Positions 1 to 54,140 are shown, numbered from the stretch's first letter. The stretch: DNA of 64,000 nucleotides from Psilocybe cubensis (GCA_017499595.2 CM039006.1:1426001-1490000), one strand, 5' to 3'. Notes: generated from the letters alone by a model not told the origin. Translations and numbers: made by a program.

Positions 1-2377
1 GCAATTGAGGCCTACCTGAAGGAGATCTTCAAAATCCCGTGCTGCCAGTTTCTTCATATCTGAAGCATTCCTAGCAAAACGTCGGATAGTTGTGAGGCCG
101 AAAGGGGAGACTTGGCGGTATCTAAATCTATAGTTAGTTTGAGTAAGAATCGAGATATCACGACAATACCTTTCGTTCAGAGTTGCAATGGCGTTCTGGT
201 TGCTAGAGGTATAAAGAATCCGGAGTAGGTGACTAAATAGGGCCTTCCAGACACCCAGTTCCACTTCGTGCATGAAGTCGACAGTAAACATCCGATAAAA
301 GTTGAAGCCATATTCAAATAAAGCCTTGGAAAAAGCGTTCTATGTAATATTCTTAGACAAAATACGTAGATATGAGGAAATAAAAATATACCCGAGTTGG
401 AAAAGCAGAGGTCTGTTGCAGCAAGCCATTAACCACCTTGCTGTTAACCTTTTTCCCCAAGAACAATGCTTTACGGGCAGTTTTGATGTCAAATTGACAA
501 GTTTCGCTGTCAACGCGAGCTAGCTTGAGCCGGTTTCGCATATCCATCTTTGATCCAACCTTTGGGACATTCATAGTCTGAATTAAACAACGTGGACACA
601 AGCAAGTGCCGCGACACTTGCAGCAGGACTGCAGCATTCTGCTTGTACATTAGTTATCAATCGAAATAGCGAGTAGATGTTGACTTACTTTTTGGGGTAG
701 TCATTTGAACTAAAAATAAAACGGAGATACATAGCTCGACATACTCTGTCGGCCAGTTCTACGGCCTCTCCTTCAGCATACGCTCGTTTGACATCCTCAT
801 CAAGTAATAGCCCCCAGACGCCTGTATTGACCTCGCGTCTCATATGGGTGAGCATTTCAGATGTCGCAGCTTTGCCAAACTGTCGCTGATGCCAATCTTG
901 AAAACTGTCTGTGAGCTATGACCCAAACGTTAATATGAATAGTACATGCCAGTCAATACAAACTTACTTTAGGGATATACGCAATATGGTGCGCAGCGAA
1001 TTCTTTAGGTTTCCCTCTGGTGTATTTTGACTGGTTGAGGATATACATAAGGATCGGCCATATAGAAGCATCGCCAAAACTGGTCAGGTGGGTAGAATCT
1101 GAAAAAATCCCGATACCAACGACAAAGGGCTCCAGGTGTCTGTGGGGACCTGTGCGTGGCTCTGACTTGATCTTTTCATACTCTTCATTGAAAATGTCCG
1201 CCACGTAGGACTCTGAGAATAAGCGTTCGGGTGGTTCGTCGGGTGAGGGACGCCAAAATTCTCTGTACGGTATGGTCGTATACGTCTCAGAGGTGCATTC
1301 TGCAAAGGCCTGTTTGATAACTTCTAGAGGTTTTCGATACATGACGTTTTCAACAACAAATTGAGGAACCTCCTCTTCCGAATCGAATATGAAACCGTCG
1401 CATGGCACTGGTATTGAAAAGCTGCCCTTGATCCACCCAGCTTCCGGTCGACACACTTCTGACAAAGTAGGATCTGTAGAATTTTTTTGGGTGGAGATTT
1501 CGTCCAGACGCACTGCCTCTCGAGCAGTAGAAAAGGAGGAATCAAAGTCCTTGGGGTCAAAATCCGGGTCCAGTACGACTTGGTGAATCAATTTGTCAGT
1601 ATCAGCGTAGGATTTAGTACCGTGGCCGTTGTAAAACCAAGACATGATAAGTTGAGTAGAACGATTTTTGAATAGCAAGCTCTTGTCGTCTTTTGGCTCA
1701 GAATCCAAGGACCAATCCGAAGGTAGGGCCATTGGTGTTCCCTCTGACGCCTTTCTCAAAGAGTCGGCTGGGTCTTTGGCAATATTTGGAGAATTGGACA
1801 CTGATGACAGTGTGAAATGTTCGTCAGGAGTAATAGAAGGGGGACCATAGGTATACTCTCGAAATATCCCATAGCCATTCATTGGTGTTCGATACAGACT
1901 CTCCACAGATGGAGGTTCCTGAGGCTGAGGTGGTTCCTCCTCCACGACTGGTGGTATAATTAGAGGAGGTTCGGGTGGGACCTCGTCTCGAAAGCGCTGT
2001 GGCAATCTAATAACGCGTGGAGGAAGTCCTCTAGGCCGTTCAATGGGAGGTGGTGGTGTCGGGGGATGTGGTGGTGGTGGTGGTGATTTAGGTGGAGGCG
2101 CAGGGGGCATTGGAGGTGGTACCATATCCACATCGAGATACTCATGATGGACATCAACGTCCATAGGCCCGGGCTCATTATTCAGGGTTGCCTGGTGCAA
2201 AGAACCACTGGCAACATTACTGTTCTGATTCTGCCTGCTGAAGTTTTCCTGGAACCCCTTCAGGACCTTGCTCATTGCAGCAGGATATTTTTTACATTTG
2301 TTGGTATGCTGCTTCAAGGAGCAACCTGGTACAAAGAGTTTATGGCACCCTAAGCAGGGTCTTTTTTCGTCGGACAT
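1..2377 (-). CDS. Plavaka-family transposase, multi-exon, 3' end beyond the window; possibly defective
   Basis: ATG at 2377 (MSDEKR). N-terminal CxxC..H..C finger and Pro-rich linker, then recognisable Plavaka motifs across GT-AG introns: FSDSTHLTSFGDASIWPILMYILNQSKYTRGKP..AAHHIAYIP, DYP(K)K, CLCPRC, VDFMHEVELGVWK, IRRFARNASDMKKLAARDFEDLLQ. Confidence 0.88.
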
Positions 2378-2400
2378 AATTACGGCCTGCTGAAGTACAA

Positions 2401-2700
2401 CTATCCACGCAATGAGCCTGGATAGGGAGTAGAAAATCCTTGCCCAAGCAATGAGCCTAGGCAGAGTAACGATACCCTTATCCCAGCAATGAGCCTGGAT
2501 AGGGGGGATATCCTTGCCCAAGCAATGAGCCTGGGCAGGCGAACGACACCCTTATCCCAGCAATGAGCCTGGATAGGGGGTAGAAAATCCTTGTCCTAGC
2601 AATGAGCCTGGACAGTGGATAGGAAGCTCTTATCCCGGCAATGAGCCTGGATAGCGAGCCACCAATTCGTTCTGACCCGAGCAATGAGCCTGGGTAGAGC
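2401..2700 (+). repeat. Hairpin array 1: 8 copies of stem-NN-GCAATGAGCCT-stem
   Basis: Core at 2409, 2448, 2486, 2522, 2560, 2599, 2638 and 2681 (spacing 36-43 bp). Each core is flanked by a short inverted repeat. Confidence 0.95.
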
Positions 2701-3028
2701 GAATAAGGAGAGTGCAGACATCAACCTCAGGCGTGATAGGGCGCGGTGTCGGAGTTCAAAACTTAGCGGAGTTTTGATTGGCCTAACCGGCTTACTGTAA
2801 GCAATCTCATGTTTTTTTTATGTTTTTTGAGCTCAGAATTGATTCACACATGTTTCGATGCAGGTCCAAACAATTCTTTCCGTGGTATACATGATATCTG
2901 ACCAATAGTTTGTACGAAGAAATATAGATAGTATACATAAAATTTGTTTTGTAGTATGTACGAAGGCAAAAATAGACTGTGAGTAGTGGTGTAGATCCGT
3001 GAATGAAGAAACAAGAAAAATGTGCTAC

Positions 3029-6000
3029 CTATCTACGAGGATTCCTGGTTACGGGGATATGTTCATGGACAAATGCCGCTGATCGAGCTCGCACCAATTC
3101 CCTTAGAACACGGACTGGCTTATTTTTGAGAAGGCTCTTCCAGTCTTGAAGCGTTAAAGGTTGCGCTTTGCCATTTTGAATTAATTCCAGCCTAGTCTGG
3201 TACCAGTACTCGTTGCGTTCAGTCCATTCCAGCCATCCTATCCCATTCCTGTCGATTTCATTCCATACCGCCGGGGGAGGAAACCAAGACTTGACTCCGA
3301 CCTGATTTTTAAAATCTAAGAACGACATTAAATAGAGCGATCAGTTAAATGTAGTGAACACTTACCCGTCATGAGAGAATACGACCCGATAATAATCGCA
3401 ATATCGTGTTCTGTAAGCCCGTCATCGCAGTAAGCCAGCAACTCGGCCTCTGGATTAGCGACATATCCGCGTCCATTTCTCAGCAATTCCACTGATGGGC
3501 CCTGGAGAACAGACTCTGTGCTCAGATACTCTTTGGCAATTTGTCCTACTATTCCACCCATGAGTAGCGCTGCACGACCGCGTTGTTGGTCCAGTATCTG
3601 CCGACAGGCCAGCATCGAGGACTCATAGTCGTAGTTGGTAAACTTGTAGCTGACTTTGCGGTAAAAGGTAACTTCCTTGTAGGGTTGATGCACCTGAACC
3701 ACATTTTTACGCCCGACAAGAGTTCGAAACTGCACTCCTTTGGACAAAAGTCTGTGTGCCACACTGACAACTGTATGCCCAGGATGGGACTGGAAGACTC
3801 GTAAGACATATAAAGCAGCCTCTGGGGTTTCGACTCCAATACTCCAATCAGCAGACATTCTGTCGGACTCTTCCTGAGGTGCATGTATGTCGTGATGAGC
3901 GAAAACAAATAGATTTGGGATGGGCCGATGGATGAGGCTGAGATTCCCTAAAACTTGAAGGGATAGGTAATTTTGCGGGTGGAGATCGTGAATGTCTTGA
4001 GGGAGCGGACGGTCAGTTGACCCCATCAAACCGTCATGAAACTGACAGATGAGTTGACGATCCGTGTTTGAGACAAACTGTTCTGCCCCATCCTTCCTAA
4101 ACCCAAAGTGTTGACAGGCGTGTTTCCAGCCTTCCGGTGTCTTATCCTCCTTCTTCGGGACTACAGAGGCTACGAATCCATAGCTGTATCGCAAGTTGGA
4201 GATGAGGTTGGCGGTGTCCCAATCGTAATCGTGGATTTTCGAAGCTTTATCAGTGTCGGTATCCATGGTGGAGGGGCCCGGCTCTGGACGATGTACCGGA
4301 GGCTGGGAAGGCCCCTCCTGAAATTCCTCCGTGTCCATGGGGAATGTTTCGTACTGAGGTTCATGAGGGGAAGTCGCACCACCCGAGGAAGAGTCTACAC
4401 AGGGTTCTGGGATGACGGAAACGGATTCCACACGGGGTACATCGTTGTCGGGGATGATGGACTGGGGATTGATGCGGGCAGCTTGGATAGGATAGTCGTA
4501 GATATAACCGTCCTTCCTAGGAGGGGGGTCCACAAATTGCAGATATTTTCGTGGCAAATCCACTTCATCAAAAATGTCCCACTCGTTTGAGACTGCATTG
4601 TATGTTCGTTGAGAGGGAGGCACCTTTGCAAACAGTCTCTCGTGCTTTGATTGAAGGAGGAGAACTTGCATGTATAATTCCTTCCCCCCCGGCGTCGTGA
4701 CACTTTTCCACCTATAGACCGATGTGTTGTACCCCGGGAGGGCCTCCTCTCTTTGAAGCCTTTTGATCTTTGCGTCCTCGGTCTCAGTCGCAATGATAAA
4801 GCGCTGGTTTCTCTCGCGTTTCTCCAAGAATATCGAGACGTGGTCGTACAACTCTCCTCTCCGGTGGTAGTCACCTTTGTCCATCCAATCGTGAGTGGGG
4901 AGATTTGCTATGGCTCGCTTGGCCTCTGCAAGGTCCATGTCCATGGCTCGGCTTACTATCTCCCTCAATTCTGCAACCGTGGCCTCCACCTGGTTCTCCT
5001 CCATAGCCGCCTTGACCTTGTCGGTTTGCGAGGCAAATTTTTCATACATATATTTCGTGACCAACGACGTACTGTGTTCCATTCTCAATATATGTTTGGT
5101 GGAGTGCAGCGGGCAATCATGAAATCAAAAGTAGGACCTAAGGATTAGGCCAGCGAGAGGAACACTGGGGAATCGGTTCAGAAACTTCTCAAGGGCATCC
5201 CGAACAAGGTTTGCAGGAGGCTCAAGATAGCAAAGGGTGGGGTTGTTTATGATGGCCTGTTCTGCGATGGCACACCACGGAAAGAAAACAGGAATCTGCT
5301 GGTCCAGGAAGAACTGTATCTCGGGCCTCCGATTGTCATATTCATACCAGGGAATAACTATCCCTGCACGCTGAGTGTCGGGTGAGAATACACACGCTGG
5401 CGATGTTAAAAGCCCGTCCAACCAGGATCGCTGTAGCATCGGAACCTCCTCGAGCAGCCTGGTATACCATCGGGGTAGTAACTCGCCCTGTTCTCTCACC
5501 ATCTTTCCTGCACAATACTTGTCATACTTTGCACACGCAGCAAAATATGCAAAGAATCCCATCCATACGGCAAACCAATCTCGCGCCAATTTAATCTGGC
5601 GATAAGCTTCTTCTTTCGATGTGTAGGGCTTATCGTATTTAAAGATGGAAGGCGGGGGTGGTTGACTGGCTGGTACGTGGTACCATAGCTTCATTTTGTG
5701 CGCAGCTTCCAGTAAACATTGTTCCTTAAACCGCCAATGCTTTATAGTATGAATTTCGAGCTGGTAGAGAGTGGAACCGGGTGGAGTATTATAGCTAGGA
5801 GTTACATCCAGCTCAGGCTGCCAGGTAAAGGTGTCGAAGGGGTCGGAGATAAAGGATGGGTTGAGCGGTATGAAGGACATCCACCCAAAGGTGTCTGTCC
5901 ACCAGACAGGATGCTTGACAGAGGTGGGATCTGGCTCTGCATGTTCGGGGAATGGGTGGGGGTGATTCCGCTCTGGGGCCTTGATACGGACTGGTCGGTT

Positions 6001-6138
6001 ACAATTGGGAGAGTAGTAAATTATACCGTCTTGTAGGAAGACGGAGCCCTGGGACCAGTCAAAGGAGGGCGTAGTCTGTTGTACGTAGAATTAGCAACCA
6101 AATACACCTTGATATTGTAAGATACATACGGGGGGCAT
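3029..6138 (-). pseudogene. Large transposon-associated hypothetical gene with one in-frame premature stop
   Basis: ATG at 6138 (MPP, intron, TTPSFDWSQG...). ORFs 5125-5880 and 3328-5088 share a frame and are separated only by TGA at 5125-5127 plus 12 sense codons. The last exon follows an intron near 3311-3366. C-terminal RGRAALLMGGIVG, YCDDGLT, SWFPP and WTERNEYWY motifs resemble genes I recall next to agaricomycete Plavaka transposases. Confidence 0.7.
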
Positions 6139-6181
6139 TATGGACAGTCGGGGGAGCAGGAATTCCAATTTATCTGTGCGT

Positions 6182-6379
6182 ACTGCCCTGGCAATGAGCC
6201 TGGGTAGTTTAAGCGTTCTGCCCTAGCAATGAGCCTGGGTAGTTTATGAGTTCTGCCCAAGCAATGAGCCTGGGTAGTGTCTCGCGTTCTGCCCTAGCAA
6301 TGAGCCTGGGTAGTTTGCGCGTATTGCCCGAGCAATGAGCCTGGGTAGTGAGGCTGTCCGAGCAATGAGCCTGGGTAGC
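6182..6379 (+). repeat. Hairpin array 2: 6 copies of TGYCC-NN-GCAATGAGCCT-GGGTAG
   Basis: Core at 6191, 6226, 6261, 6297, 6332 and 6362 (spacing 30-36 bp). Same invariant 11-mer as array 1. Confidence 0.95.
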
Positions 6380-6508
6380 GAAGAAGAACCAATGACGCAG
6401 GAACGTGTTGAGATTACCATGCGTGTCGGAGTTTGAAATTGCCATCAGGCGGAATCTGAATTTGGGTAGGGTTCCATTTGTTGGCTCTGTTGACTTCCGC
6501 ACCACTAC

Positions 6509-7115
6509 CACCCTTCAACCCACGGAAATACCTGGGGGTTCGTTGGGTGGCAGTCTGCTGACTACGGTGATTCCGTAGTCTGTAGGCTGCTCAAGTCGGT
6601 GCCCACACCTTTCAACCCACGGAAATACCTGGGGGTTCGTTGGGTGGCAGTCTGCTGACTACGGTGATTCCGTAGTCTGTAGGCTGCTCAAATCGGTGCC
6701 CACACCCTTCAACCCACGGAAATACCTGGGGGTTCGTTGGGTGCGGCTGCTTGACTATGGTATTTCTGTAGTCTGGCGGTTGTTCGTCTCGGAGTTTGGT
6801 GGCAGTCTGCTGACTATGGTGATTCCGTAGTCTGTAGGCTGCTCAAGTCGGTGCTCACACCCTTCAACCCACGGAAATACCTGGGGGTTCGTTGGGTGCG
6901 GCTGCTTGACTATGGCAATTCTGTACTCTGTAGGGTGCTTCTGTCGCTGCTACGGACTACCAGCCCCCTTCAACCCACGGAGATACCTGGGGGTTCGTTC
7001 GGTACGCGTATACACCCCTTCTCGTCGTCGAAAGCCCTGGCCACAAGCTTCAACGCACGGGTATACCTGGGGCGTCTTGGGTGGCTACCTCCTGGCTATG
7101 GTGATTCGCGGTGGG
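6509..7115 (+). repeat. Hairpin array 3: ~97-bp unit made of two stem-loops, 6 progressively diverged copies
   Basis: Hairpin A (CAACCCACGGAAATACCTGGGGGTT) at 6516, 6613, 6710, 6865, 6971 and 7051. Hairpin B (GACTACGG-TGATT-CCGTAGTC core) at 6560, 6657, 6753, 6811 and 6908, with a degenerate copy near 7095. Confidence 0.93.
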
Positions 7116-7307
7116 CTATTTTTATCCTCTGACAGCTCGCTGTCGATGGCGATCGCGCCTCCTTCGCCTGCTAGTTATGGCAATGGCGCGGAATAGCGCG
7201 GACATCTGTACCTCCTCAGGTGTCCATTACATAACCACTGCGCTCAGTATATGCGGAAGAGAGTTTTTTTCATCCCTTTTCTTCCCGTACCACCACCATC
7301 CACCACC

Positions 7308-9429
7308 ATGCTCACCCCGACCCAGATTGAAAAAGCCCTCACGGCTATCGATACCAACAAAGAACTCGAGTAAGCCTGAATCCCCCCCTCCCCCGTTCCC
7401 GTGCGCGTTAACCGCTAACGTTATTTGTAGATGCCCCGAACTAGCAGACACTCTGAAGGGCGCGAGATGGATTCACTAGTCCATTGACCCATTTATGAAC
7501 GTAAAGAGCGTCATCCAAGAGGGTCTCGAGTTTCTGGCCAACCATATAACGGATGGTATGACCCGACAACAAATATTGGAGTAAGTATATGCGCCTTTTT
7601 TTTCTGGGGCATTTATTTATGCATATATTAGTTTACAACCCAAGCTCTGGTCCTTCTATGAGATGCAGGACTTGATGCCCGACCTTATGGATATCATCAA
7701 GAAGTGCGAGGACAATTCTGCCTTGATTGGCAAAGTCATTGATTTGGTAAGAATTTTGTGAGGTCGCATGTACAGATCGACTAACCATACTTGTAAGGTA
7801 TCGAGTGCTGCAGCTCATTCGCGATCCGACGATCTCTTCAAGGCACATAAGTTGATCTCGGAGTTGATCCCATTTGATCTGAGGGTCCCACTTGACCTAC
7901 AGGCCTACAAACTGGCCTGTGCCAGGGTGAACCAGGGCTATAAACACCCTGCATACGCCGCTCTTTTAATCCCGCGTGTCAAGTTCGCCGAGCTTGCCGA
8001 CCTCAATGCGCGTGAAATTCTGTAAGTCGGCTTGTTATTTTCTGCGAATATGAGTTGATTTATTTGTGGATAGCGTGCGATGTGAATCACTCGAAGCCGA
8101 TACCAAAAATGGAGACGCGCTGGATTGGCCAGCTTGCTTGTATGACCCTGACATCCCATTTGACATAGACGACGAGGTCCAAGGTCTGTTTCGACCACCC
8201 TTGGGTCCCCAAGTAAGTTTTTTTTTATGTTTTGACATGTCATTGATACATATTGGCACTCTAGTTCGTCCAACGTATGCTTGTAGGCGAGGCCAACAGG
8301 CTTGGAGGACGTGCCAGCAAAGGACAGATTCACAAAGTATATGAACTAACGATAAGACTCATATGTTATTATTGCATGATGGTAAGTGGACATTGCCAGT
8401 AGTCTGTCAGTGCTAACCTCCTTCAAAGCTTGTCATTGCAATCAGCGGTAAGACTTGGCCTGAGGCGAAGAGCATTTTGAAGGCCGACCGCCTCTACGCA
8501 TCTATTCTGACGCTTCTGTTGGGTCTTTTTGATGACAATACGTGGGCCAAGGAGACTGTGGCTTGGTGGCAAGAGTAAGCGTGCCTTACGCGCTTGATTT
8601 TATGCTAATGAATTTCTAGGAACATTATCTTGCCATCTGAGCCCGTGGATCATGACAAGAAGTCGTCCCCTTTAGAAGGTAGTGCACGCGACGGACGCCT
8701 CAGAGACCCGGTAGAACGGCGTAAAGCTCAAATGGCCGCTGCGGCTCAAGCACCTGCACCTGCTCGTGCACCTGCTCGTGCACCTGCACCCGCACCCCCT
8801 CGTGCACCCACACCCGAACCTGCTCGTGTACCCACACCCGCACCTGCATCTCCTCAAGCACGCACACCCTCCTCCCACCCCGCCCCAGATAATGGGTCTG
8901 CACCAGCGCTAGCTAAAGCATTTGCAGCTGTTTCACTGGCGGAACCTGTGCCTCAACAAGTCTCCCGTCGCCGAATGGCATTAAACGCGATTAGGATCCC
9001 TTCAGAATCCCCCCCTGACCTCCCTTCCGAGGATTCTTCCTCTCTTTCTTCCGAAAACGAACGCTCCCCTTCCCCACCAGCCCCGATCAAGATCAAGGTG
9101 CGTTTTCACTCGAGATTGGTTCATTACACTAATATTATGATTAGCTCCCTGCAAAGAGGAAAGCGGCGCCACGCCGCCCTGGTCCAAAGCGTAAAGACGT
9201 GAGTGCATTTATTACATTCTCTATCTAGGGCTCATATTAGCTACAGGCACCACCTTCAGACCCCTTCGAGACCGGGGATGAGGCCCTGCCTACTCCCAAC
9301 GCTGATGCCGTTCCTGCACCCAATTCTGACGCCACCGCCGCCGACGGTGAAGAACCACCAGCTAAAAAGGCCAGGACCCAGGCCAAGGGAACGCGCCAAC
9401 CTATCAAACGTAAGGCTAAGAAATTCTGA
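7308..9429 (+). pseudogene. DUF6698-like transposon accessory gene with Pro/Ala-rich and basic tail; disrupted
   Basis: Multi-exon reading gives RSDD...GYKHPAYAALLIP, WPACLYDP..D..QGLFRP, KGQIH and WAKETVAWWQ. In-frame TAG at 7477-7479 and a further disruption near 8340. PAPAR repeats at 8745-8850. Confidence 0.62.
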
Positions 9430-9579
9430 TGTCTTTCATTGCTGTAATTATTGCTCTGCTCTGCCCTGCTTTACATACCATGCCTGTACTTTTATTACTG
9501 AATAAATAAATTTGTTCTATTATAATCTGCTGGGTGCCTCAAAATCCCATTCAATCCTCCTTATCATTGAGAAATCCAA

Positions 9580-9812
9580 TAAATTCTCGCAATGTTTTAT
9601 AACGCTCTTGATTCCTTGTCATCTCATACAGTAATTTGTTGAGATTATAAACTAGCCGCTTATTCTTTCATATTGCAATACCCAAAAATATTGTAAACCT
9701 CAAATTAATTTATTCGCACTGCAATATTTCCGGTTTCTCACAACATTTCAAGAGGGTTGTAACGCAGTATGAGAATTTCGAATAAAAAAATATTTAATTG
9801 GGTTTACAATGC
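9580..9812. repeat. Overlapping imperfect inverted repeats (subterminal-like)
   Basis: AAATTCTC...TTATAACGCTCTTGA (9581-9611) pairs imperfectly with TCAAGAGGGTTGTAA...GAGAATTT (9748-9778). ATTGTAAACCTCAAATTAA (9690) pairs with TTAATTGGGTTTACAAT (~9794). Confidence 0.6.
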
Positions 9813-11096
9813 TTTGTAATCTACCCGCACTTTTTATGATGATCAAGGATGTTGTGCATTGGACAAGTGGTTGTTGAGATATGGAAAGAAAGGTGTTGAA
9901 GAACCCATCAGAGACCCGGATGGATATTGGCCTTTATTTATGCTTTGTTTGTGGTCACCTCTTTGGCCTTTCTCCGGGATACTTTTTGACATATCTCAGC
10001 TCATAATCATCGGATTTCCATGAGTCTATATACCACAGATAGGTGTCATTTAGGGCTACACAGCCGTATAGTTTTTGTATTTTATAAGTGTTATCCTTCA
10101 CATCATATTTTGCTTTTCCTCCATTTTTGAACAACAATGCTTATTCTTCTTGTACCATCTTGTTAAGCGTTCTGGTCATTTAGCATTATAAATATAATAT
10201 GTAGAGGACCTTAGTAGCTATCTGTGAATGTAAGATATGTGCATTTAGGTGAAGTATAAGCGGTGATATGGTCATATTATGTTGCACATCCAATACCTTG
10301 TTATTAGCCTCATAACCAAGGTGTTTCCCTTCATCCTGAATGTTTCAAAGATATGTATTGGGTCTGTGGTACTATATAGAGCAGATTTACATACCTATAT
10401 GTGCTGGGAATGGCCATTCTATCCCATAATAAAATATACAAATTCTGGAGAGGATGGGGGGTAGTACCCTTAAATCTTAGAATTGCACCAAGATTTTGGG
10501 CCCTAAAAATTGGTATAATAAACGCCTCCCCATCCCTGGTTGGGCCTGAATTTATCTGATCAGGAAGGCATTTGTACAAGGGGTAGGAGGAGGGGTAGGG
10601 TGCACATCCTAGTTCAATAGGTTCCACTGCTCCAATTGAGCTGAAACTTGGCATGTACTCCGTCTAACATAAATAATAAATAATGGCATAGTCAAAAGGG
10701 TGCATGCCAGCCCCTGGAGGGTGCTATTCAACGTGCGCTTTTTGACCAAAACATCGTATGCTTAATTGCACAATAACAAGTAAAGATATTGCAATTCTAA
10801 TTTCATATTCGGATTGGGACACTTTAAAACTATATGTCTATTAAAAAACACCAAGGGAAACGGTCCAGAAATGCCCCCAAAAGCGCCCAATCCATTGCCA
10901 GCAATGCACAAAAGTAGCATAGGATGAGTGTTATTTATAGAGCCAGGAGCCAAGGGAAGGGGCAGGGACAGGGCCCTGATGTGATGGCTGTCAGCCCTAA
11001 TTCTAATATATTTAGTCCGAGTTCCTGGGCCAAAAATAGCATGCACTAATCAATCTGGTACAGGATTATCAAGCCTAGATAATCATAAGATTAGAT

Positions 11097-11391: not shown

Positions 11392-13899
11392 TTGAAGCTA
11401 CCAGTCCGAGAGGTTGAAACTGCTGCCCGAACGGCAGTTTGGCGGACGCCCCGGATGCACCACCGGCAACTCACTCCACCTGCTGATGAAATTTGCAAAA
11501 GACGCCTGGAGGAGAGGAGAGGAAGTGGCGGTGGTCTACATGGACGTGAAAGGTGCCTTTCCAAACACAGTCATACCGGTGTTGGAACACAACATGAGGT
11601 CAGTGGGGATACCGAAGGAGTACACGAGGTGGATAAGGAACAAGAGCGAAGGGAGAGAGACGGTCATCGCGTTCGACGACTTCACGTCGCAGCCCATCGC
11701 AGTCAAAAACGGCCTGGATCAAGGATGCAATCTAGCAATGTTAAGTTACAGGATATACAACGCGGGACAAATCAAAGCGATCAGGCAGAACAAGGTCGAG
11801 CTATCAACGAATTATGCAGACGACGCGTATGTGGCGGCGGCGGGGAAGACAATGAAGGAGGCAGTACAGAGGGTGGAGGAGCTCTTTCATAGAGAAGAAG
11901 GGCCCAGAGATTGGACAAAGTCACACTTCTCGGACTACCAGTACGAGAAGTTTGTATTCAAGGGACTCACGAGGAAGAGAGTGGTCGACCCAAACAACCC
12001 GAGGAAGAGGATCGCGCCACCTACGCCGAACATCAACCTTGATGGCCAACAAATCAAGGCAAAGAACATACATAAATTCCTGGGAGTGATGGTGGACAGC
12101 AAACTGAGGTTTAAGCAACACGCCGCGTACGCGATAGCCAAAGGAACAAAGATGGTCAATCAGACAAGGAGGCTGTCACGGATGGCGAAGGGGATGAGAG
12201 GAGATTACGCGAGGAGGCTGTATTACTCGAGTGTGGTAACCAGCATGCTATACGCAGCTGATGTATGGTGCCCGACGATGGCGGGAGGAAAGGGAGAAAG
12301 GGAGAAGGGCATGAAAGGAATGTTGAGGAAGATGGACAGTGTACAACGAAGGGCAGCGCTACAGGCAACAGGTGCACTGAGGACAACACCGACGGATCTA
12401 CTATTTGCACATGCAGACATGCCACCAACAAAAGATGTCATATGAAAAATGTGCAACGCGGCGGCGCTACGGATGGCGACGCTACCGGAATCGCACCTGC
12501 TACATCACGAGATAAAGAGAGCCAGGAAGATACAACCCAAACGGCACCCAGCACCTTTGCACCATGTCATGGCAGTGAGCAAAATATTCCAAAACGACTT
12601 CGAAATGATAGAAACCACCCCTAAGGCACCAAAGTGGGAATCACCAATGGACATATTGATAGCAAAGGACAGGAAGAGAGCAAAGGAAATGGACAAGGAA
12701 GACAACAGCGACATCAGGATCTACACGGACGGGTCAGGACTGGGAGGGAAGATAGGAGGAGCGGCGGTGATTTACGAACAGGGAAGGAGCACAAAGGTAG
12801 CGAGAGCGCATCTGGGCAGCGAGAAAGAGCACACGGTGTTCAAAGGGGAATGCGTGGGGCAGATACTGGGAATGCAACTCTTGGAGGACAGGCTCGAAGA
12901 AAGAAGACCAAACCAAACTGAGACAATTACAATAAGCATGGCGGTGGACAACCAGTTGTCCCTGACAAGACATAAAGCAAGGAAGCAGGGCCCAGGGTCA
13001 TACCTGATAGAGGAGGTGCAGTGGCAGTGGGCAAAAATCAGAAAGAAATACCCAAAAGCAAGGCTGAAAATGAGATGGGTCCCAGGACACGAGGACATCA
13101 AAGGAAGCGAGAGGGTTGACAGGGAAGCTAAACGAGCGATGAAAGGCGCAGACAGAAACACCGGCCCACAGAGAGGATGCCTGAAAAAGACCCAAACTGC
13201 GAGAACTGCGAGGACAATGTACCAGAGACAATCACACACTACTTGAAGCACTGCCGAGCGTACAAGGAAATAAGAGCAGAATGGAGGAAGGAGCTGGGAC
13301 CAGACCACCCAATCGGCGTAGGACTACTAGGAGAGCTCAAAACAATACAGAGCGTGCTGCGATACGTGAAAGCCACCAAAAGATTCAAAGAAACACATGG
13401 AGAAATAGTATGCGCCGAGAGGGAGACCGAGGAAGAAGAAGCGGAGAGGAGAGAAGAAGAAGAACTGGAACTAGAGGAAACCTGGGTCTAGGAGAAGAAC
13501 AATGGACGAGACCACGAAGAGAAAACAGCGCCGGCAACACTGTGAGGCAGGCCACAGCCCAACCACCACTTCCTTTCATTCCCGATGTACATATTTCATT
13601 TCACCTTCTAATGCAACATATTACACATTCTACTGTCCCATATTTGAATTTTCTACCTTCAACACATCTCCCCACCCATTTTACAATACCGTCGTATAAC
13701 ACAGTTACCTTACTTACAGCTACTATCACACACAGAGACATAATACGCACTACGTGCGAGGTGCTACCAAAGGAGGCCCACTACAACGTAGAGTTTGACA
13801 CCATAGGAATAGTATATTAAAAGTAGAACATACAGTAGGACGTCCAGCATAAGGCCTGACCTCAATGGACAATAAATAGGATTTAAAAAAAAAAAAAAA
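11392..13899 (+). mobile_element. 5'-truncated non-LTR retrotransposon (Tad1/I-like LINE): reverse transcriptase, RNase H, C-terminal zinc motif; inactive
   Basis: RT motifs QFGGRPG, DVKGAF, GLDQG and YADD; RNase H motifs IYTDGS and WVPGH; CxxC..ETITHYLKHC. In-frame TGA at 12443 and a frame shift near 13170. AATAAA at 13871 and an A15 tail at 13885-13899. Confidence 0.93.
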
Positions 13900-16127: not shown

Positions 16128-18345
16128 ACAACCGCCTGTGCCAGCTCACGACGAGGATTCGGAGACGGATTCTGATCATGATGGACAGGCGCTACCTATT
16201 CCACCTAGGCGTCCAGTAGTGCCTCGTATCGCCCCCCCCACCGTTTAGTTCTTCGCAGGAGGAAGGTGGGCAGCAGCAGCAGCCTTCTCAAACCATATCT
16301 CCTCCTGAGCAAAGTACGCCTTCTCTGTCGGTCTCGGGTTCGGAAGAGATACTTGACAAAGAGGAAGGCGGTACGTGATTATTCAATTTTCACGAGCACA
16401 ACTATCCTAATTACTCAACTTTCCTTTCGTCTTACAGACCCCATAGACCCGGCATTCCATAGCCCAAGCAGGCAAACCTCATTTGTAAACCTCCGTAGTA
16501 TTTCTCAAGCGCAAGAGGAAATCGATGCCCAATCTCCTATTTCACCGTCAATTGGCCGATCATCCCTGGTACATTCGCCTGTTGTTGCACCTCCAGCTGC
16601 ACCTCCATCTGCTGCTCCTCATGATGATGATGATGCCAAAGAGGATGTAGAACAATTACGCCGCAAGACAATCGCTGAGCGCATGGCCAAATTGGGTGGT
16701 ATTCGATTTGGCGCTGCACCTATCCCTACCCCCATCAGTCGACCACCACCTCGACAGTCTGAGGAAGAAGATCAAAAAGAGGGTGAAAGTTCAGCTGCAG
16801 TAGACGAAGAACCTGCAGTGCCACTTTCTGAAGAAGAAGAGGAGCGAGCGCGGAAGGAACGGATTGCAGCCAAATTGGCTACGATGGGTGGAATGAGGAT
16901 TGGGATGATGATGGGTGCTGGTGGATTGCCTCCTCTGCCCCCGAGATTGCATATGGTGAAAGAGGAGAATGTTGACAGAGCTTCTGCGCCTGCACCTGCT
17001 GTCCCACCCGCGCCACCCACCCGCGCTGTACCTCTCTCACGGCCCCCTCCGCCTCCAGCTGCCCCTGTGCAGTCGGCCCAAGATACAGACTCTGAGTATG
17101 GAAGCGTAGCTGCTTCTGAAGAAGGTGTCAAGGTTGAGGCTGGTGAAAGTGAGGCCGAGGAATCTGGATACGAACATGTCGAAGAGGCTCCTCCTCCAGT
17201 ACCATCACGAGCTGCTTGCCCGTCTATCAACAGACAATCTACAGGACCTTCTTCTCCACCTTCCAGGCCACCTGTACCGACCGCCTTGCCGATGAGGCGA
17301 TCTAGCACATTGCAGAGCTCCACCTCTACGAGAAATGTATCAGGTGGAGATGGGGCGTCGAGTCCTCCCCATAGGGCGCCGCAAATGCCTCACACTGAAT
17401 ATGTTATGGTTGAAGAACCGGAAAGTCAAGAGGCTCCTCCACCGCCTCCAGCCAGGCCTGCCGCTCGCCCTCCTCCATCACGGTCTGCTCCTCAGGCACC
17501 ACAACCACCACCTATGCTCCAGCGTCCCGACCTGGGAGATAGCATATCCTTGCAATGGGAGCTCCCGTCAATCCCTAATTCCAGTCTCGATTTCAGTGGT
17601 GCCTCGGATTTGACAATGTCGTGGACAGATGCTGGCGCCGAACCAACCTCTCCTGTAGTGGCGGCACAACCATCTTCTCCACCCGCCCCTCCACCGCCAA
17701 CCAAACCACCTGCTCCTCTAGCTAACAATCGACAATTGTCCGCCGACGAGCTGATCGCGTTGTGGGGCCGCGTTGGCGTGCAGGTTTGCAAGGTTGCTAC
17801 GTCGCTCTTCGAGAAATCGCACAAGACGCTCATCGGGGACGGGTCCTACGCCGGATTCGTGCGCGAGGTGCTTGCAGCGGTGCCCAACGCCGCACCCGCG
17901 CCCACAGCTGCTGGAGAGCCGTACGGTTATACAATATACGGTTATACAATATACGTGCAGAACGGGCCGGCGGTGGTGAAACGCGTCAGCGATATTATGC
18001 CGGGCAATTTGGTGGAGATTCAGGATGCAAAGCTCAAGGGGCACAAGGGGCTGCAGACGTATCATCAGTCCGTGGGTGCGGCGGGTGAGACGTTGGTGGG
18101 CGTTGTGGGCGAATTCGAAGCGAAAAAGTCGAAAATCAGGGTGTTTCAGGCAAATCAGCATGTTGGACAGCAGGTATGCAGCGCTCTTTGCAATTTGTAT
18201 CATTCTGAATATTTCCTAGACAGTCGAGTCTGTCAGTTACCGTTTGGAAGACCTCAAGAGCGGACTTGTCAAGGTTTGTCCTTTTTATTCTCGCTTTTTC
18301 CACAATTCTGACAGATTTTAGGTTTATCGTGTTCTCGATGCATAG
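16128..18345 (+). pseudogene. 5'-truncated Bbc1/Mti1-like (myosin-tail interacting) gene with Pro-rich region and C-terminal BBC1/AIM3-type domain
   Basis: RRKTIAERMAKLGGIRFG, RKERIAAKLATMGGMRIG, LWGRVGVQV...KLKGHKGLQTYHQSVG...VFQANQHVGQQ, TVESVSYRLEDLKSG, VYRVLDA*. No start exon is visible; frameshift in the C8 run at 16232-16239. Confidence 0.7.
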
Positions 18346-19690: not shown

Positions 19691-22296
19691 CTAAGGTGCA
19701 GGGCCGGAAGGACGATATGGCGTATCATCGGAATGCTTCCGTTTCTTCCTTGGTTGGCGCGAGGGAGATCCATCCAAACCAGAATTATACGTGGAGGCAA
19801 CAGGATTATCGAGCTCAATATGGGGTGCTGGAGATCTGGGATGCTTTTCACCCTTTCCGGCCTTCGGCGGATTGAGGTAGTCGTGCCACCCGGGAGTATT
19901 GTTTGGCCAATCCTTGTTGAGATACTCCTTGAAAGTAGATTCCAAAAGTTGATAAAGCTGTACTCCGAGCTCGTTGGTTTCGCGGTCAAAAGCTTCTCGA
20001 GCCTGTCCATAAGTATATTGTTGGTTTCCCATAAGTTGTTTGATGCGTTTGCGAGGCTCCGAAACATGGTCACCATATCTAGAAATAATGTTTGCAAAAA
20101 GGGTATCTATGAGATCCGTTAGCGGTTCATTGTCGGTAACAACGAAGACTTTGAAGCTAAAACGATTGCCGGTGACGAAGGATTGTTTGCCTGCCCCGCC
20201 TGTGTTTAATTCGCCTGGGACATCTCGGTCAACTTGATCAAATATCCTCTCCATTACTGATTGTAACCTTATAGGCACAATGCTGGTCTTCATGTACCGC
20301 ATTACGGAGTAAAGAAGGGCCCAAATAAAAGACTCGGCGTCGTCGATGCAGTGGTGAACCTTTGACGGGTCCTCGAGAAGTCCTATTGACATGAACTGCC
20401 ACGTTCCCTGGTAATGGTACATTTTTAGCCGCAGGTCATCACCGGAGCAAATCAAATCACTCACCGACCGAGATTGCTGCCTCTTGTCCTTGAGAGGAGT
20501 ATGTGTTTCAATGTTGTAGCGCGCTGCCAGGTCCCAGTCATTCAGCACTCCGCCGTTACCGTCTCTCCTCCTCAGGATATTTCCTAGGCTCACGTCTCGG
20601 TGTAGAATCCCACAGAGCTGGTATGCATCCTGGTGGGCTATTGCGAGATAGATGAGCATCAATCATGAACATAATTGCATGCTTACCGATTACAGCGTCA
20701 TAGACAGCCTCAACCAGCTGCTTTGGGTTCTCGAATTCCCAGAGAGGAAGACCGACAATATCTTCGACAAACCGAATGTGCACTCTCGTTATAATATCCT
20801 TCGCAACTCCACCTGCATTCCATAGCGCTTTGGTATAATCCTGGGTGATTGTCCTATGGCCAGGTATGTCGTCGCCGTAGAGGTATTGTGGTACGTTTCG
20901 GACACCATGTTTGTTCAAAGTCTGAAGTATGTCTGTTTCCTTTTCCATACCTTCCCCACACAATCTCCAGGAATCCTTCAGAAAAACAATGTCTTCCCCC
21001 TCGGGACGGCTAGGATCCCACGCCGGGTATCCTCGTGTTGCTCGTCCAATAACGGTATTGGGTTCTGAAAGGGACCCCCACACATACACAGTGTGTAATT
21101 TTTTGACTGGATCAGCAACAGTTGACGTTGGCATTGTGGGCGCAGGGACCTTTGCTGGCACAGATTGTTCCGGAACATCCATTGCATAGACACGCTTGCT
21201 GCCACTCGCAGGTTGCCAGGCGCTCAGCTTTTTTCGTGCCATCATAGCTTTCACGTCATCGATTGGTAAGACACGAACAGTCGTATCAAACCCACGGGCT
21301 TCGTCAGTTGTTTGGGAATAGTACCACAGGAAGTCTAGGAGCAAATCACCATGCTTTTTGAAGTTAATCCTTTCTGATACTAGACCTCCTGAGCGATCAA
21401 AGCGAATGATGCGGGCATAGCAGCCCCCAATGTAGACAACATAGCAGTGGGTACGATGTTGTCGGTGCATCATGATTCGGGCATAGTTAGTGATCTGCCC
21501 CCGGCATTGAGAGCGCCCATTAGGAGTAGCCTCAAAAGGACGCTCAGAAGCTTGCCCTACAACACCTGAGACCTTAATAGCTCTAGAATCGAATGGGTCG
21601 ACAGTATTTTGTTGTGGCTTGAACTCGAAGACAAGCTCCATCTCACGGTAGATGGTTACATTGTCCAAGTTAACTGTATCCTTGTATGCCGCCAGATCGG
21701 GTTTGCTCTTCATATCCTTAACGACCGCTCGATCTGCATAATTTGATGTGTTGACCAATTTGAACCCAGGCATAGCGTTTATCTTGGCGACCTTCTCAAT
21801 CTGAGCGGTAGTCAAGGAGTTAATAACATGAAAGAAATAAGCTATAAGAATGACGTACAAATGGGTCATACATGGTATTTTCTTTTTCGTCGACCACAAA
21901 GCCTGAGAAGTAATCCATAGAAAAGGTAGGTTTGATTTTAAGGCTTTCTTTGGTGACGGGCAGAAGCTCCAATAGTTCATTGAATGGCATAGGCCCCACA
22001 AAGTGGTCTCGGATGTTCTCGACCATTTTTTTCTTCACCTGACTGGCACTGGGTACAATTTCAGAGGCGAAACGTCCTGAGCCCGAGTATGTATTTTTTA
22101 TAGGGGTTGACTTAAAGGCAGCTACTGTGGAATTTTGGGCAGCCGAAGATTCAGACTGTAATGGAGTTGGAGTTGGGGCGACTGCCGAACCACTACTTTC
22201 AGTGGTCCAAGCAGACTTGGAGTCTGGGGCAACGAGATCTGAAAGAGGCAGCGGGGAATCATTGTTAGGGGAGGGGCTCAACGACGGCGACGACAT
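19691..22296 (-). CDS. Fungal-type protein kinase (FunK1 / Pkinase_fungal)
   Basis: RGQITNYA, QHRTH, IIRFDRSG, IGRATRGY, FLKDSWR, GILHRDVSLGNIL, GVLNDWDLA, GTWQFMS and DDAESF; three introns. Confidence 0.92.
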
Positions 22297-37257: not shown

Positions 37258-38538
37258 ATGGCCCGCACCATAGAGATATTACCACTGGAGATCATAGAAG
37301 ATATCATCGCTCTCTTGTCCGATTTCGATCGTTCTGTCTCGACAACACCTACATCCCTTCAGACATGCTCTCTGGTCTGCCACGCGTTCGTTCCTCTTTG
37401 TCAAAAGCACATCTTTCACTCTATTGTTTTGCATGATAGAGCCCCAAAATCCTCTTTTGTCAAGCTTATCAACAAAAATCCACGGATACTTGACTATGTT
37501 CACAATATTAAATACTTGGTAGAGCCTGAGGATTCTCATCTCGAAACCGGTTGTCCAACTTCCTTCGTCGACGTTCTTAAAAGCTTCACAAAGCTAACGA
37601 CAGTGATGGTATCTTTTCAATACTTCCCAAGGCAGGATTGGAACAATCTGTCCGATATAATGCGGACCGTCGTCCTTTCTATTATACATAAACCATCTGT
37701 CACCTCAGTCGGCTTGACAAACATAGACAACTTCGACCACACCACTTTGCTTCTATGCCCCAACGTCCAGGAGCTCAGACTTCGAAACGTCATGTGTACA
37801 CAGCCGGCCCCCTCTTCAACAAGCACGGCCGCATATACGCCAATCAAACCACGTCTGCTCGAAATAATGTCTTGCATAGAAATGTTAAATGTGCATTACG
37901 ACGTCGGAACAGCGATATTTGACCTTACAGAATTAAAACATATCGAACTTCAAGGCCGTGGTCCACTTGTTCCTGCAAAAAATATTCTAAAAACGGCCAA
38001 AGCACTCGAATCTGCCCTTGTCGAAATTAATTGTAGGTATTTCTTTGATAGCTGAGAAATATATGCTTACATATATATAACATTTTCAAGTTGCAAACGT
38101 GGATGACTCTGATGACTTGATCTCTCTATTGATAGGATCTTCCAAGACTCTGAAACGCTTAACTCTGGAACCAAATCATATTGGTCTGACCACAAATTAT
38201 TACGACCTCTTAACGAGGATGGGGGGGGGGGGGGGGGGGGGGGGGTACTAAAGAGATTATCTGGCCAAAATATTATCTCGACATTAAATATTGAACTCTA
38301 CGCCATTTTGGGGCCAGAACCAACTATCGGCGAAGAGTGGAATATTTTCGACCAAGTTCTTTTGACTCCCGGATGGTCGTCTCTTAGGGAGTTTAACCTA
38401 ACTATTGAAGATTCTCGAGGCGAAATAATCATGCGGGCATTGCGATCGCTTCCTCAAACTTATCTCCAAGGACTAGCAACTGGCAGCGAAACCGTCAATT
38501 TTAATTTCGAGGTCGTAGATATTTTCGAGGACTGGTAG
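37258..38538 (+). CDS. F-box-like protein; frame broken by a G25 run as sequenced
   Basis: LPLEIIEDII...LQTCSLVCHAFVPLCQKHIF; one intron at ~38033-38090; paralogous to the next gene (GQNIISTL in both). Confidence 0.78.
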
Positions 38539-43789: not shown

Positions 43790-44121
43790 GTTGGTAGAAA
43801 TGGGATACGGGACACTGGCGACGAACGACCTGCTGGAATTTCCAAGGACCGCAACAGCCCGCGACACGGAAAGGAAAAAATACCATGGTCACGTGGTGTT
43901 GTCTCTTTAGGGGAGGTTTGCTTATTCGGCCTTCAAGCCGGGCCACTCTATCTTTAACCGTTGTGTGCTCTCCCTTCTGTCAACGTACCATTATCCAGGT
44001 TTCTGAACTATTGACAGCAATCAGCACTGATATATCCGACTTGACACGCTACAATACTTATCGCGAGTACTCTCAGCGGCGCCTATTGCTTACATCTAAC
44101 CAGATCCTCAAGGTGGCTTCA

Positions 44122-44787
44122 CACTGCGGGCGCCGACTGCTGTAAGTTAAACATACAGCAGTAAACTTACATGTCTTATGTAAGTTTAGGTGTATGTTCA
44201 ACTTACAGCATATGTGTCGGGAAAACAAAAATTTAACAAAGACATATTGTGTTTGGTGGCTGTATGCCGACCAAACACAATTGCTGTAAGTAGACTGTAA
44301 ATAGAATAAACACCTAAATTACACAAATTGTGTTTGTCCGGTGTTAGTAAAACATACACATTTTCTGTAAGTAATACAAACAGCACTTACTGTAAGTAAA
44401 AATTACACACAAAGAAAACAATTTGTGTATGTTATACTTACACAAGTTTTTCAATTCATTTAATGGTGTAAGTCTGACATACACAAATAGTGTTCTTTGT
44501 ATGTAAATTTTACTTACAGCAAGTGCTGTTTGTGTCATTTACAGAAAATGTGTATGTTTTACTAACACCGGACAAACACAATTTGTGTAATTTAGGTGTT
44601 TATTTTATTTACAGTCTACTTACAGCAATTGTGTTTGGTCGGCATACAGCCACCAAACACAATATGTCTTTGTCGAGTGTTTGTTTTTCATACACGTGTG
44701 CTGTATGTTGAACTTACAGCGAAACTTACATAAGACATGTAAGTTTTCTGCTGTATGTTTAACTTACAGCGGTCGGCGCCCGCAGTG
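44122..44787. mobile_element. 666-bp foldback MITE with CACTG...CAGTG ends and 3-bp TSD (TCA); CACTA/EnSpm-like
   Basis: Arms 44122-44443 and 44466-44787 are near-perfect reverse complements around a ~22-bp spacer. TCA at 44119-44121 and 44788-44790. Confidence 0.95.
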
Positions 44788-53881: not shown

Positions 53882-54140
53882 TCAATAAGCTTTAAAAATT
53901 GAGATTAAATAATATGTGAATGGCAGAATATACAACGGACGTGGGATGCAGAATAGTATTTGACCTATTTCAGCACATATTGCATGGATAAAATATTTCA
54001 GGAATATCCCATATGATAACAGTCCAGAATTGGTTCCAGCTAGATGGTAATTGATTGGCAGACCAGAGCAATTCAATTTTACAACATTCTACCCAGATCT
54101 CAAAAACATTCGGGAATTGCAAAAATTTTGCAGCAAAATA

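What the first reader, a model, noticed from the sequence alone, without database searches (positions are those of the whole stretch)
2401..7307. All three genes of a Plavaka transposon are fronted by arrays of conserved-loop hairpins: candidate undescribed control or ncRNA system
Seen: array 1 (8 hairpins) lies 24 bp upstream of the transposase ATG, array 2 (6 hairpins with the same invariant GCAATGAGCCT) 44 bp upstream of the second gene's ATG, and array 3 (6 two-hairpin units) upstream of the divergent DUF6698-like gene. Arrays 1 and 2 share the loop but not their linkers, and all arrays fold best on the + strand. Known: CACTA-type elements have subterminal transposase-binding repeats, but these arrays are internal and gene-proximal; I know no description of this for Plavaka. 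Inference: multivalent binding sites for an element-encoded protein, or a precursor processed into unit small RNAs, acting in autoregulation or anti-silencing.
Basis: partly seen in the sequence, partly recalled or inferred. Interest (0 to 1): 0.88.

Follow-up and report, generated by a model that had tools for sequence, protein, structure and literature searches.

The report
Conserved hairpin arrays inside a mushroom transposon
A multi-copy Plavaka-type DNA transposon of a Psilocybe-like mushroom carries, just upstream of each of its three genes, tandem arrays of short hairpin-forming units with an invariant core, which look like selected control sites of a kind I found no description of, though their working form (RNA or DNA) is still unknown.

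Summary
Fourteen exact copies of GCAATGAGCCT, all on the + strand, form two arrays. Eight lie 23 nt from the first in-frame ATG of a Plavaka transposase, and six lie 43 nt from the ATG of a second gene. A third array of 97-bp two-hairpin units lies about 200 bp upstream of a divergent DUF6698-like gene.

The 11-nt core is 100% identical in all 91 unit pairs, while linkers are 30-50% identical. The lower stem is kept through three pair types at two positions. This argues for selection, not a neutral minisatellite.

The strand claim holds only in part. Array 1 folds equally well on both strands. Array 2 and the B hairpin of array 3 favour the + strand (G·T against A·C cells: 25 to 5 and 22 to 0).

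The arrays are internal: a candidate TGATG terminus lies at 9837-9841. Consecutive locus tags in Psilocybe cubensis show the transposase next to gene 2 in 6 places.

I could obtain no DNA of other copies and no RNA data, so conservation across elements and transcription remain untested.

Best reading (0.4): transcribed, multivalent protein-binding hairpin operators. Main rival (0.28): DNA-level transposase or regulator sites.

The parts
1..2377 (-). Plavaka transposase gene, 5' part. It has introns and runs off the left end of the window. The first in-frame ATG is at 2377. The N-terminal 34 aa hold a Cys/His finger-like motif.
   Evidence: PF18759 matches at E = 3.2e-11. The protein is 98% identical to a P. 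cubensis Plavaka protein of 1234 aa. Later exons can be seen in the three-frame translation. Public gene models start at the second Met.
2397..2702 (+). Array 1: 8 hairpin units with the invariant core GCAATGAGCCT, spaced 36-43 bp apart, with diverged linkers.
2746..2756 (+). Box GTGTCGGAGTT, about 45 bp to the right of array 1. The same 11-mer follows array 2.
   Evidence: One search found the exact 11-mer at both places. The wider local alignment of the two flanks is not significant (score 27; shuffles have mean 23.6 and maximum 42).
3029..6139 (-). Gene 2, about 1000 aa, of unknown function. The ATG is at 6139 and a short intron follows the first three codons (MPP).
   Evidence: 94% and 86% identity to P. 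cubensis proteins that carry a precomputed PF28437 label. The family has 1176 representative proteins at E <= 1e-3. The local Pfam copy gives no hit. The AlphaFold model has mean pLDDT 80.5 and no PDB match at E <= 0.001.
6179..6383 (+). Array 2: 6 hairpin units with the same invariant core and an identical right arm (GGGTAG). Each stem holds a G·T wobble on the + strand.
6423..6433 (+). Box GTGTCGGAGTT, about 40 bp to the right of array 2.
6506..7130 (+). Array 3: 6 A hairpins and 5 B hairpins (plus a degenerate one) in units of about 97 bp. The B hairpin has 18 pairs, of which 3-7 are G·U on the + strand.
7308..9430 (+). Gene 3, DUF6698-like, with several introns. Exon 2 of this copy has an in-frame TAG at about 7476-7478. 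The 3' end is approximate.
   Evidence: Two collinear weak DUF6698 matches (E = 0.013 and 0.057, both below the curated cut-off). Position 7477 reads C rather than T in runs X1 and X10.
9837..9841 (.). Candidate right terminus TGATG of the element (PlavakaB type).
   Evidence: Kojima 2025 gives PlavakaB termini as CATCA..TGATG (PMC12730594, section 3.2.2, read). From 9842 rightwards, contig depth rises 5-10 fold and contigs of other copies have loose ends at 9842. The left end is off the window, so the terminal inverted repeat and the target-site duplication are untested.

Best explanation
The arrays are selected cis-acting parts of a multi-copy, PlavakaB-like transposon of Psilocybe cubensis or a close relative.

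Each unit is a short stem-loop. It has an invariant 11-13 nt core, made of a two-pair upper stem, an AAUGA loop and the 3' shoulder. Its lower stem only has to pair.

I think the units are most likely transcribed and act as a multivalent platform for a protein that reads both sequence and structure. That protein is probably encoded by the element.

Transposase and gene 2 share the same hairpin and the same GTGTCGGAGTT box, so they would be controlled together. Gene 3 has its own two-hairpin unit.

Shown: the anatomy, the conservation pattern, the pairing and the linkage of the genes.

Inferred: transcription, the strand, the protein partner and the regulatory outcome (autoregulation of expression).
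For: - Core against linker: the 11 core columns are 100% identical in all 91 pairs of the 14 units. The two bases just 5' of the core are 41% identical, and the outer linker columns 30-33%.
- Pairing is kept: 85.7% of 154 cells pair, against 29-51% when the partner is slid by 1-3 columns. Pair 7-27 is GU 6, AU 5, GC 3. Pair 8-26 is CG 8, UA 5, UG 1. The covariation score is reached by 11 of 500 shuffles.
- B hairpin of array 3: 93.3% of 90 cells pair, against 31-47% when slid. Its two variants differ at most outer-stem pairs yet both fold, at -30.7 and -22.8 kcal/mol as + strand RNA.
- Wobble asymmetry points to a single strand read as RNA. G·T against A·C cells are 25 to 5 in arrays 1-2 and 22 to 0 in the B hairpin, that is 10 columns to 0.
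- The background mutation in this copy hits both strands about equally: 18 A>G and 14 T>C among the listed differences from other strains in 1-7477.
- The G·U-rich B variant is a poor hairpin as DNA (-5.5 kcal/mol) but a good one as RNA (-22.8).
- Position: arrays 1 and 2 end 23 and 43 nt from the ATGs. The - strand has no ATG from 2377 up to 2721 or from 6139 up to 6420, where 4.9 and 3.5 are expected. This fits leaders of the two mRNAs.
- One module, used twice: the same core and the same 11-mer box sit at similar offsets from both arrays.
- The element is real and multi-copy. Six pairs of consecutive P. cubensis locus tags on the same contigs join a transposase to a gene-2 homologue. A paralogous contig of about 85% identity keeps gene 2, both arrays and the start of gene 3 in order, with fewer repeat units.
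Against: - There is no RNA evidence of any kind.
- The strand signals conflict. ATG avoidance and gene orientation favour the - strand for arrays 1 and 2. The wobble pairs favour the + strand.
- The nearly invariant A·C mismatch next to the upper stem (11 of 14 units) would be a G·U pair on the - strand.
- Array 1 shows no strand preference by z-score.
- All units come from one copy of one element, and tandem units are related. The compensatory changes therefore amount to perhaps 2-3 events in arrays 1-2, and the shuffle controls overstate significance.
- On the + strand every core carries an ATG. A + strand RNA holding the arrays would thus make a poor leader for gene 3.
- The ATG-free finding is weak once repeat structure is allowed for. 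My rough estimate is p of about 0.02, not a formal test.
- Strand-biased C>T mutation could mimic the wobble asymmetry. Array 3 has an AT skew of -0.24 to -0.26.
Confidence: 0.4

Rival explanations
1. The arrays are DNA-level sites. They would be tandem binding sites, on duplex DNA or an extruded cruciform, for the transposase (whose N-terminus has a Cys/His finger-like motif) or another DNA-binding regulator. This would resemble the TnpA-binding subterminal repeats of En/Spm (CACTA), moved to the promoters of the element's genes. Binding would repress or activate the promoters, or bring parts of the element together.
For: - The invariant part continues into the right arm. Thirteen to seventeen bp are fixed, and all 6 units of array 2 share the same right arm. 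That is a typical length for a protein site on duplex DNA.
- The arrays lie in promoter-proximal DNA of all three genes.
- Plavaka belongs with EnSpm-like transposons (PMC12730594, passages read). Several relatives of this transposase are named C2H2-type domain proteins by UniRef.
- TGCAAT-like motifs recur near the candidate right terminus, 9589-9810. This is a post hoc observation.
- The core 9-mer also occurs once in inverse orientation, at 2270-2278, close to array 1 (E = 2.4, not significant alone).
Against: - A duplex site gives no reason for the left arm to covary with the right arm, nor for mismatches to be G·T rather than A·C.
- All 14 cores point the same way. CACTA subterminal motifs occur in both orientations at both ends (PMC8978399, passage read).
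- The arrays are at least 2.7 kb from the candidate terminus.
- As single-stranded DNA the hairpins are weak, at -5.5 to -15.5 kcal/mol.
Confidence: 0.28
2. The arrays are neutral or selfish palindromic minisatellites. A palindromic unit was amplified by replication slippage. Template switching within quasi-palindromes keeps the arms complementary without any selection for function.
For: - Repeat number differs between paralogues. In one contig array 2 is replaced by 52 letters, and array 3 is shorter.
- Tandem arrays occur in other elements of this window: a 109-bp array of 24 units lies inside a CACTG-ended element at 52072-59996.
- Plant CACTA elements also carry tandem or satellite arrays (PMC8978399, passages read).
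- That template switching can create compensated hairpins is recalled knowledge, not checked in a call.
Against: - The core is invariant in 14 of 14 units while adjacent bases and linkers are near random identity. This is hard to get without selection on the core.
- The same core heads two arrays with unrelated linkers in front of two different genes.
- Template switching makes perfect pairs, not the observed excess of G·T wobbles on one strand.
Confidence: 0.12
3. The arrays work on + strand transcripts only. They would act as terminators, processing sites or decoys at the 3' side of antisense RNAs running through the transposase gene and gene 2, or as precursors of small RNAs. The effect would be to limit double-stranded RNA and silencing of the element.
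For: - The lower stems are best kept on the + strand: 82 of 84 core-stem cells pair on +, against 68 of 84 on - (derived).
- On the + strand each array sits at the boundary between gene units: antisense transposase, array 1, antisense gene 2, arrays 2 and 3, then gene 3.
- The B hairpin of array 3 is clearly a + strand structure.
Against: - No transcript is known.
- Stems of 5-9 bp in arrays 1-2 are too short for Dicer-type processing (my own knowledge, not a call).
- Array 1 has no strand preference by z-score.
- There is no precedent that I could find.
Confidence: 0.12

Closest known systems
Subterminal repeats of En/Spm (CACTA) transposons, bound by TnpA
   Same: - Short repeated motifs inside an EnSpm-related element that are thought to be read by an element-encoded protein and overlap the element's promoter. 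This is my own knowledge of En/Spm.
- Plavaka is grouped with EnSpm-like elements in PMC12730594 (passages read).
   Different: - These arrays are internal, at least 2.7 kb from the candidate terminus.
- There is one per gene, and all point the same way.
- Each unit is a hairpin whose arms covary. The subterminal repeats are plain motifs in direct and inverted orientation at both ends (PMC8978399, passage read).
Protein-binding operator hairpins in RNA (phage MS2/PP7 coat-protein operators, iron-responsive elements in 5' UTRs)
   Same: - The architecture: a lower stem, a bulge or internal loop, a short upper stem and a small loop of fixed sequence, with a stem sequence that is free as long as it pairs.
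- The position near a start codon.
This resemblance is recalled, not tested.
   Different: - There is no sequence or Rfam match.
- The units come in arrays of 6-8 rather than singly.
- The strand and transcription are unknown, and no partner protein is known.
REP/BIME hairpin arrays with RAYT, and IS200/IS605 end hairpins (bacteria)
   Same: Arrays of DNA hairpins associated with a transposase gene. Earlier notes of this scan describe such cases only in prokaryotes.
   Different: - Those systems use HUH/Y1 single-strand transposases.
- Here the transposase is a DDE-type Plavaka enzyme in a fungus.
Internal tandem or satellite arrays in CACTA elements of plants
   Same: Tandem repeats carried inside CACTA-like elements (PMC8978399, passages read). 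A second element in this window also carries one.
   Different: - Those arrays are described as captured satellite DNA near the 3' end.
- A conserved-core hairpin unit and a gene-by-gene placement are not reported for them.

Membership tests
Plavaka transposon (CMCT clade) | Transposase of the Plavaka family (PF18759) | tested here: met
   PF18759 matches at E = 3.2e-11, 43.5 bits against a cut-off of 26.3. All 42 of 42 longer homologues carry a precomputed PF18759 label.
Plavaka transposon (CMCT clade) | Termini CATCA..TGATG (PlavakaB) or TGT..ACA (PlavakaA), with a 2-3 bp target-site duplication | tested here: inconclusive
   TGATG at 9837-9841 abuts a repeat boundary at 9842. The left end lies outside the window, so neither the terminal inverted repeat nor the duplication could be checked.
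CACTA/EnSpm subterminal repeats | Repeats lie within a few hundred bp of both termini, in direct and inverted orientation | tested here: not met
   The arrays lie at 2397-7130, at least 2.7 kb from the candidate right terminus. All 14 cores are on one strand.
DUF6698 (PF20414), for gene 3 | Score above the Pfam gathering threshold | tested here: inconclusive
   Two exons match collinear parts of the profile (positions 2-59 and 66-109). Each scores 15.6 and 13.5 bits, below the 23.7 cut-off. The spliced protein was not assembled.
Any Rfam RNA family | Covariance-model match | tested here: not met
   No match at E <= 1 on either strand of 2300-7400.
REPtron / IS200-IS605 hairpin systems | HUH/Y1 transposase next to its hairpins | tested here: not met
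   The adjacent transposase is Plavaka. Gene 2 has no Pfam match. I made no dedicated Y1 search.
TET/JBP-carrying Plavaka (Kojima 2025) | A TET/JBP dioxygenase gene inside the element | tested here: inconclusive
   No Pfam TET/JBP hit for gene 2 or the gene 3 exons. The gene-2 model has no PDB match at E <= 0.001. The distant PE-type proteins of that paper were not compared.

The most novel reading that the evidence does not exclude
A DNA transposon runs its own RNA-hairpin operator system. An element-encoded protein binds arrays of a fixed-loop stem-loop, transcribed from in front of each gene. This sets transposase and accessory-gene output or shields the element from RNA-based silencing. 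It would be a eukaryotic transposon counterpart of phage coat-protein operators, in multivalent form.
Probability: 0.25. Interest if true: 0.8.

Novelty: new variant of a known kind. Interest (0 to 1): 0.5.

Why it matters
Very little is known about how Plavaka and related fungal DNA transposons control their genes. Their ends were only defined in 2025.

An array of hairpins with a fixed core in front of every gene would be a compact, testable control module. The element has several copies in a cultivable mushroom, so binding, reporter and RNA-mapping tests are straightforward.

If the hairpins work as RNA, this would be a new way for a cut-and-paste transposon to regulate or protect itself. 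If they work as DNA, it would show that CACTA-like subterminal binding repeats can be redeployed as gene-by-gene promoter elements.

If they turn out to be confined to this one family, the finding is a local curiosity.

Tried and rejected
- Own genome: none is held for this window, so other copies could not be collected.
- Earlier findings of this scan: nothing by sequence, place or words bears on this. Only prokaryotic RAYT/IS200 notes came up.
- Sequencing runs: no RNA holder is listed. The one run guessed to be RNA (X15) laid nothing on the element except 38 bases of low-complexity sequence at 8750-8787. This says nothing about expression.
- Contig tables: only 40 of 510 differing positions were printed. 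Variation inside the arrays in other copies could not be read.
  - All loci are unrelated repeats.
  - Only L091 has two units with the longer motif, in a 28-bp repeat on a contig that looked bacterial to me by eye.
  - I treat that as chance.
- Covariance model of the 14 units: it found only those 14 in the window (E <= 2.5e-8). The next hit has E = 2.4.
- Right flanks of arrays 1 and 2: the local alignment is not significant. Only the exact 11-mer is shared.
- Gene 2 function:
  - No Pfam hit in the local copy.
  - Atlas hits score 0.75 or less and are uninformative.
  - Foldseek against the PDB gives a best E of 2.8.
  - The wider structure library was not available.
- exceeded the residue limit and were resent with fewer proteins. 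One search had a malformed search term.
- Literature: no paper held 'DUF6698'. Searches on Plavaka, KDZ names, CACTA subterminal repeats, P. cubensis repeats, and hairpin or tandem-array transposon terms gave no description of such arrays.
- Kojima 2025: the main text has no occurrence of 'hairpin' or 'subterminal'.


Full report
**What is there**

The window starts inside a Plavaka transposase gene on the minus strand. PF18759 matches at E = 3.2e-11, and the protein is 98% identical to a 1234-aa Psilocybe cubensis protein. Its first in-frame ATG is at 2377.

Reading rightwards, the layout is as follows (coordinates are in the parts list):
- Array 1.
- A second minus-strand gene of about 1000 aa (gene 2), 94% and 86% identical to P. 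cubensis hypothetical proteins whose models also begin MPP or MAP.
- Arrays 2 and 3.
- A plus-strand, intron-rich gene starting at 7308 (gene 3), whose exons match DUF6698 weakly but collinearly (E = 0.013 and 0.057, both below the cut-off).

**Is it one element, and are the arrays internal?**

- Kojima 2025 (PMC12730594; I read the outline, sections 3.2.2 and 3.2.3, and term passages) gives PlavakaB termini as CATCA..TGATG.
- A TGATG lies at 9837-9841. It sits exactly where contigs of other repeat copies lose their match, and where depth rises 5-10 fold. This is a candidate right end.
- The left end is off the window, so the inverted repeat and the target-site duplication are untested.
- In P. 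cubensis, six pairs of consecutive locus tags on the same contigs join a transposase to a gene-2 homologue. Three further gene-2 loci have no listed transposase neighbour.
- A paralogous contig of about 85% identity keeps the 5' end of gene 2, a shortened array 2, a shortened array 3 and the start of gene 3 in order.
- The genes and arrays therefore travel together. The arrays are at least 2.7 kb from the candidate terminus.

**The observation**

- GCAATGAGCCT occurs 14 times, always exact and always on the + strand. Chance expectation is 1.2.
- Each unit folds as a lower stem of 5-9 bp, a small internal loop, a two-pair upper stem and an AATGA loop.
- Arrays 1, 2 and 3 fold better than dinucleotide shuffles on the + strand: z = -6.99, -4.44 and -5.22.
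- No Rfam family matches. A covariance model of the 14 units finds nothing else in the 64 kb.

**More than a minisatellite**

- Across all 91 pairs of the 14 units the 11 core columns are 100% identical.
- The right arm is 83% identical, the left arm 72%, the two bases just 5' of the core 41%, and the outer linker columns 30-33%. Between the two arrays the outer columns are 10-28% identical.
- The lower stem stays paired while its sequence changes. At one position the pair is G·U 6, A-U 5 and G-C 3. At the next it is C-G 8, U-A 5 and U·G 1.
- In the full structure 85.7% of cells pair, against 29-51% when the partner is slid. The covariation score is reached by 11 of 500 shuffles.
- The units are related by duplication, so this amounts to only two or three independent compensatory events. 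It is suggestive, not proof.
- An exact 11-mer, GTGTCGGAGTT, follows both arrays 1 and 2 at about 40-45 bp, although the flanks otherwise do not align significantly.

**Which strand, and RNA or DNA?**

- Array 1 has no preference: z = -6.99 on + against -6.54 on -.
- Array 2 prefers the + strand: -4.44 against -2.17.
- Array 3 as a whole hardly differs: -5.22 against -4.55, with 20 shuffles.
- Its B hairpin does differ: -6.65 and -6.25 on + against -4.67 and -3.07 on -.

Counting mismatch types is sharper.
- In the stems, G·T cells outnumber A·C cells 25 to 5 in arrays 1-2 and 22 to 0 in the B hairpin, which is 10 columns to none.
- The differences between this copy and other strains are almost all transitions, with both strands hit about equally: 18 A>G and 14 T>C among the listed rows for 1-7477.
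- One B variant has 7 G·U among its 18 pairs. It folds at -22.8 kcal/mol as + RNA but only -5.5 as DNA. This favours a + strand RNA.

Against that reading:
- An A·C mismatch next to the upper stem, present in 11 of 14 units, would be a G·U pair on the minus strand.
- The minus strand, which is the sense strand of the two downstream genes, has no ATG from each start codon through the whole array, where 4.9 and 3.5 are expected. Every core carries an ATG on the + strand.
- Array 3 has a T-over-A skew, so a strand-biased mutation process is not excluded.

I cannot settle the strand.

**The proteins**

- Gene 2 belongs to a large family: 1176 representative proteins at E <= 1e-3.
- It has no Pfam match in the local copy. 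Its model is confident (pLDDT 80.5, pTM 0.77) but matches no solved structure at E <= 0.001.
- The transposase ORF starts with a Cys/His finger-like motif. The 3 of 3 public P. cubensis models that I fetched start at the second Met instead. That Met lies in the 9-mer GCAATGAGC, the array core in inverse orientation (not significant alone).
- No partner for the hairpins can be named.

**Reading**

The conservation pattern is that of a recognition element: a fixed loop and shoulder, a stem that only has to pair, many copies, the same element before two genes and a different one before the third.
- I favour transcribed, multivalent protein-binding hairpins that couple transposase and gene-2 expression (0.4).
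- DNA-level sites, analogous to En/Spm subterminal TnpA sites moved to promoters, are the main rival (0.28).
- A neutral palindromic minisatellite (0.12) and a purely + strand role against antisense RNA or silencing (0.12) remain possible.

**What is missing**

- I could fetch no DNA of other copies.
- No RNA run holds the element.

**Novelty**

My searches found no description of such arrays in Plavaka or related fungal elements. Tandem arrays inside CACTA-like elements are known in plants (PMC8978399, passages read), and one occurs in another element of this window. I therefore rate this a new variant of a known kind, of moderate interest until other copies and RNA data are examined.

Noticed in passing
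window 1-7477 (for example 7477, 435, 484, 2323): This copy differs from the same element in other strains almost only by A or T here where they have G or C. Of the rows listed for 1-7477, 18 are A>G and 14 are T>C; the other four are C>G, C>T, G>A and A>C. This fits C-to-T decay of a methylated or RIP-like targeted repeat. One such change makes an in-frame TAG in exon 2 of gene 3; position 7477 reads C in runs X1 and X10.
   Followed up: partly
window 52072-59996: A second, non-autonomous-looking element has 643-bp terminal inverted repeats (93.8% identical) starting CACTGG. It carries an internal tandem array at 54155-57318, with a 109-bp period (about 24 copies) and a 447-bp higher-order period.
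   Followed up: partly
window 9842-10955: A high-copy repeat lies directly right of the candidate Plavaka terminus. Contig depth is 5-10 times that of the element, and loose ends occur at 9842 and 10955.
   Followed up: partly
window 2270-2278 (- strand): The 9-mer GCAATGAGC, the array core, occurs once in inverse orientation around the second Met codon of the transposase ORF. That Met is the start used by the three public P. cubensis gene models I fetched.
   Followed up: partly
window 9589-9810: TGCAAT-like motifs recur in direct and inverted orientation in the AT-rich 340 bp before the candidate terminus. They could be the true subterminal repeats, and they share GCAAT with the hairpin core.
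   Followed up: no
window 44121-44788: A 668-bp region matches its own reverse complement at 90% identity, so it is a large palindrome.
   Followed up: no
window 11396-13246 (+): A retroelement fragment with reverse transcriptase (PF00078, E = 8.8e-11) and RNase H (PF00075, E = 1.1e-6).
   Followed up: partly
window 16209-18308 (+) and 20559-22034 (-): Likely host genes: an AIM3/BBC1 C-terminal domain protein (E = 1.9e-31) and a fungal protein kinase (PF17667, E = 3.8e-21).
   Followed up: partly
window 38221-38245: A run of 25 G.
   Followed up: no
window 3660-3740 against protein P0005: The public model of the closest gene-2 homologue (976 aa) skips a 25-aa stretch (SVAHRLLSKGVQ...) that is open here. 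The stretch is present in other family members (P0207, P0203, and in diverged form P0007). It is probably a mis-called intron.
   Followed up: partly
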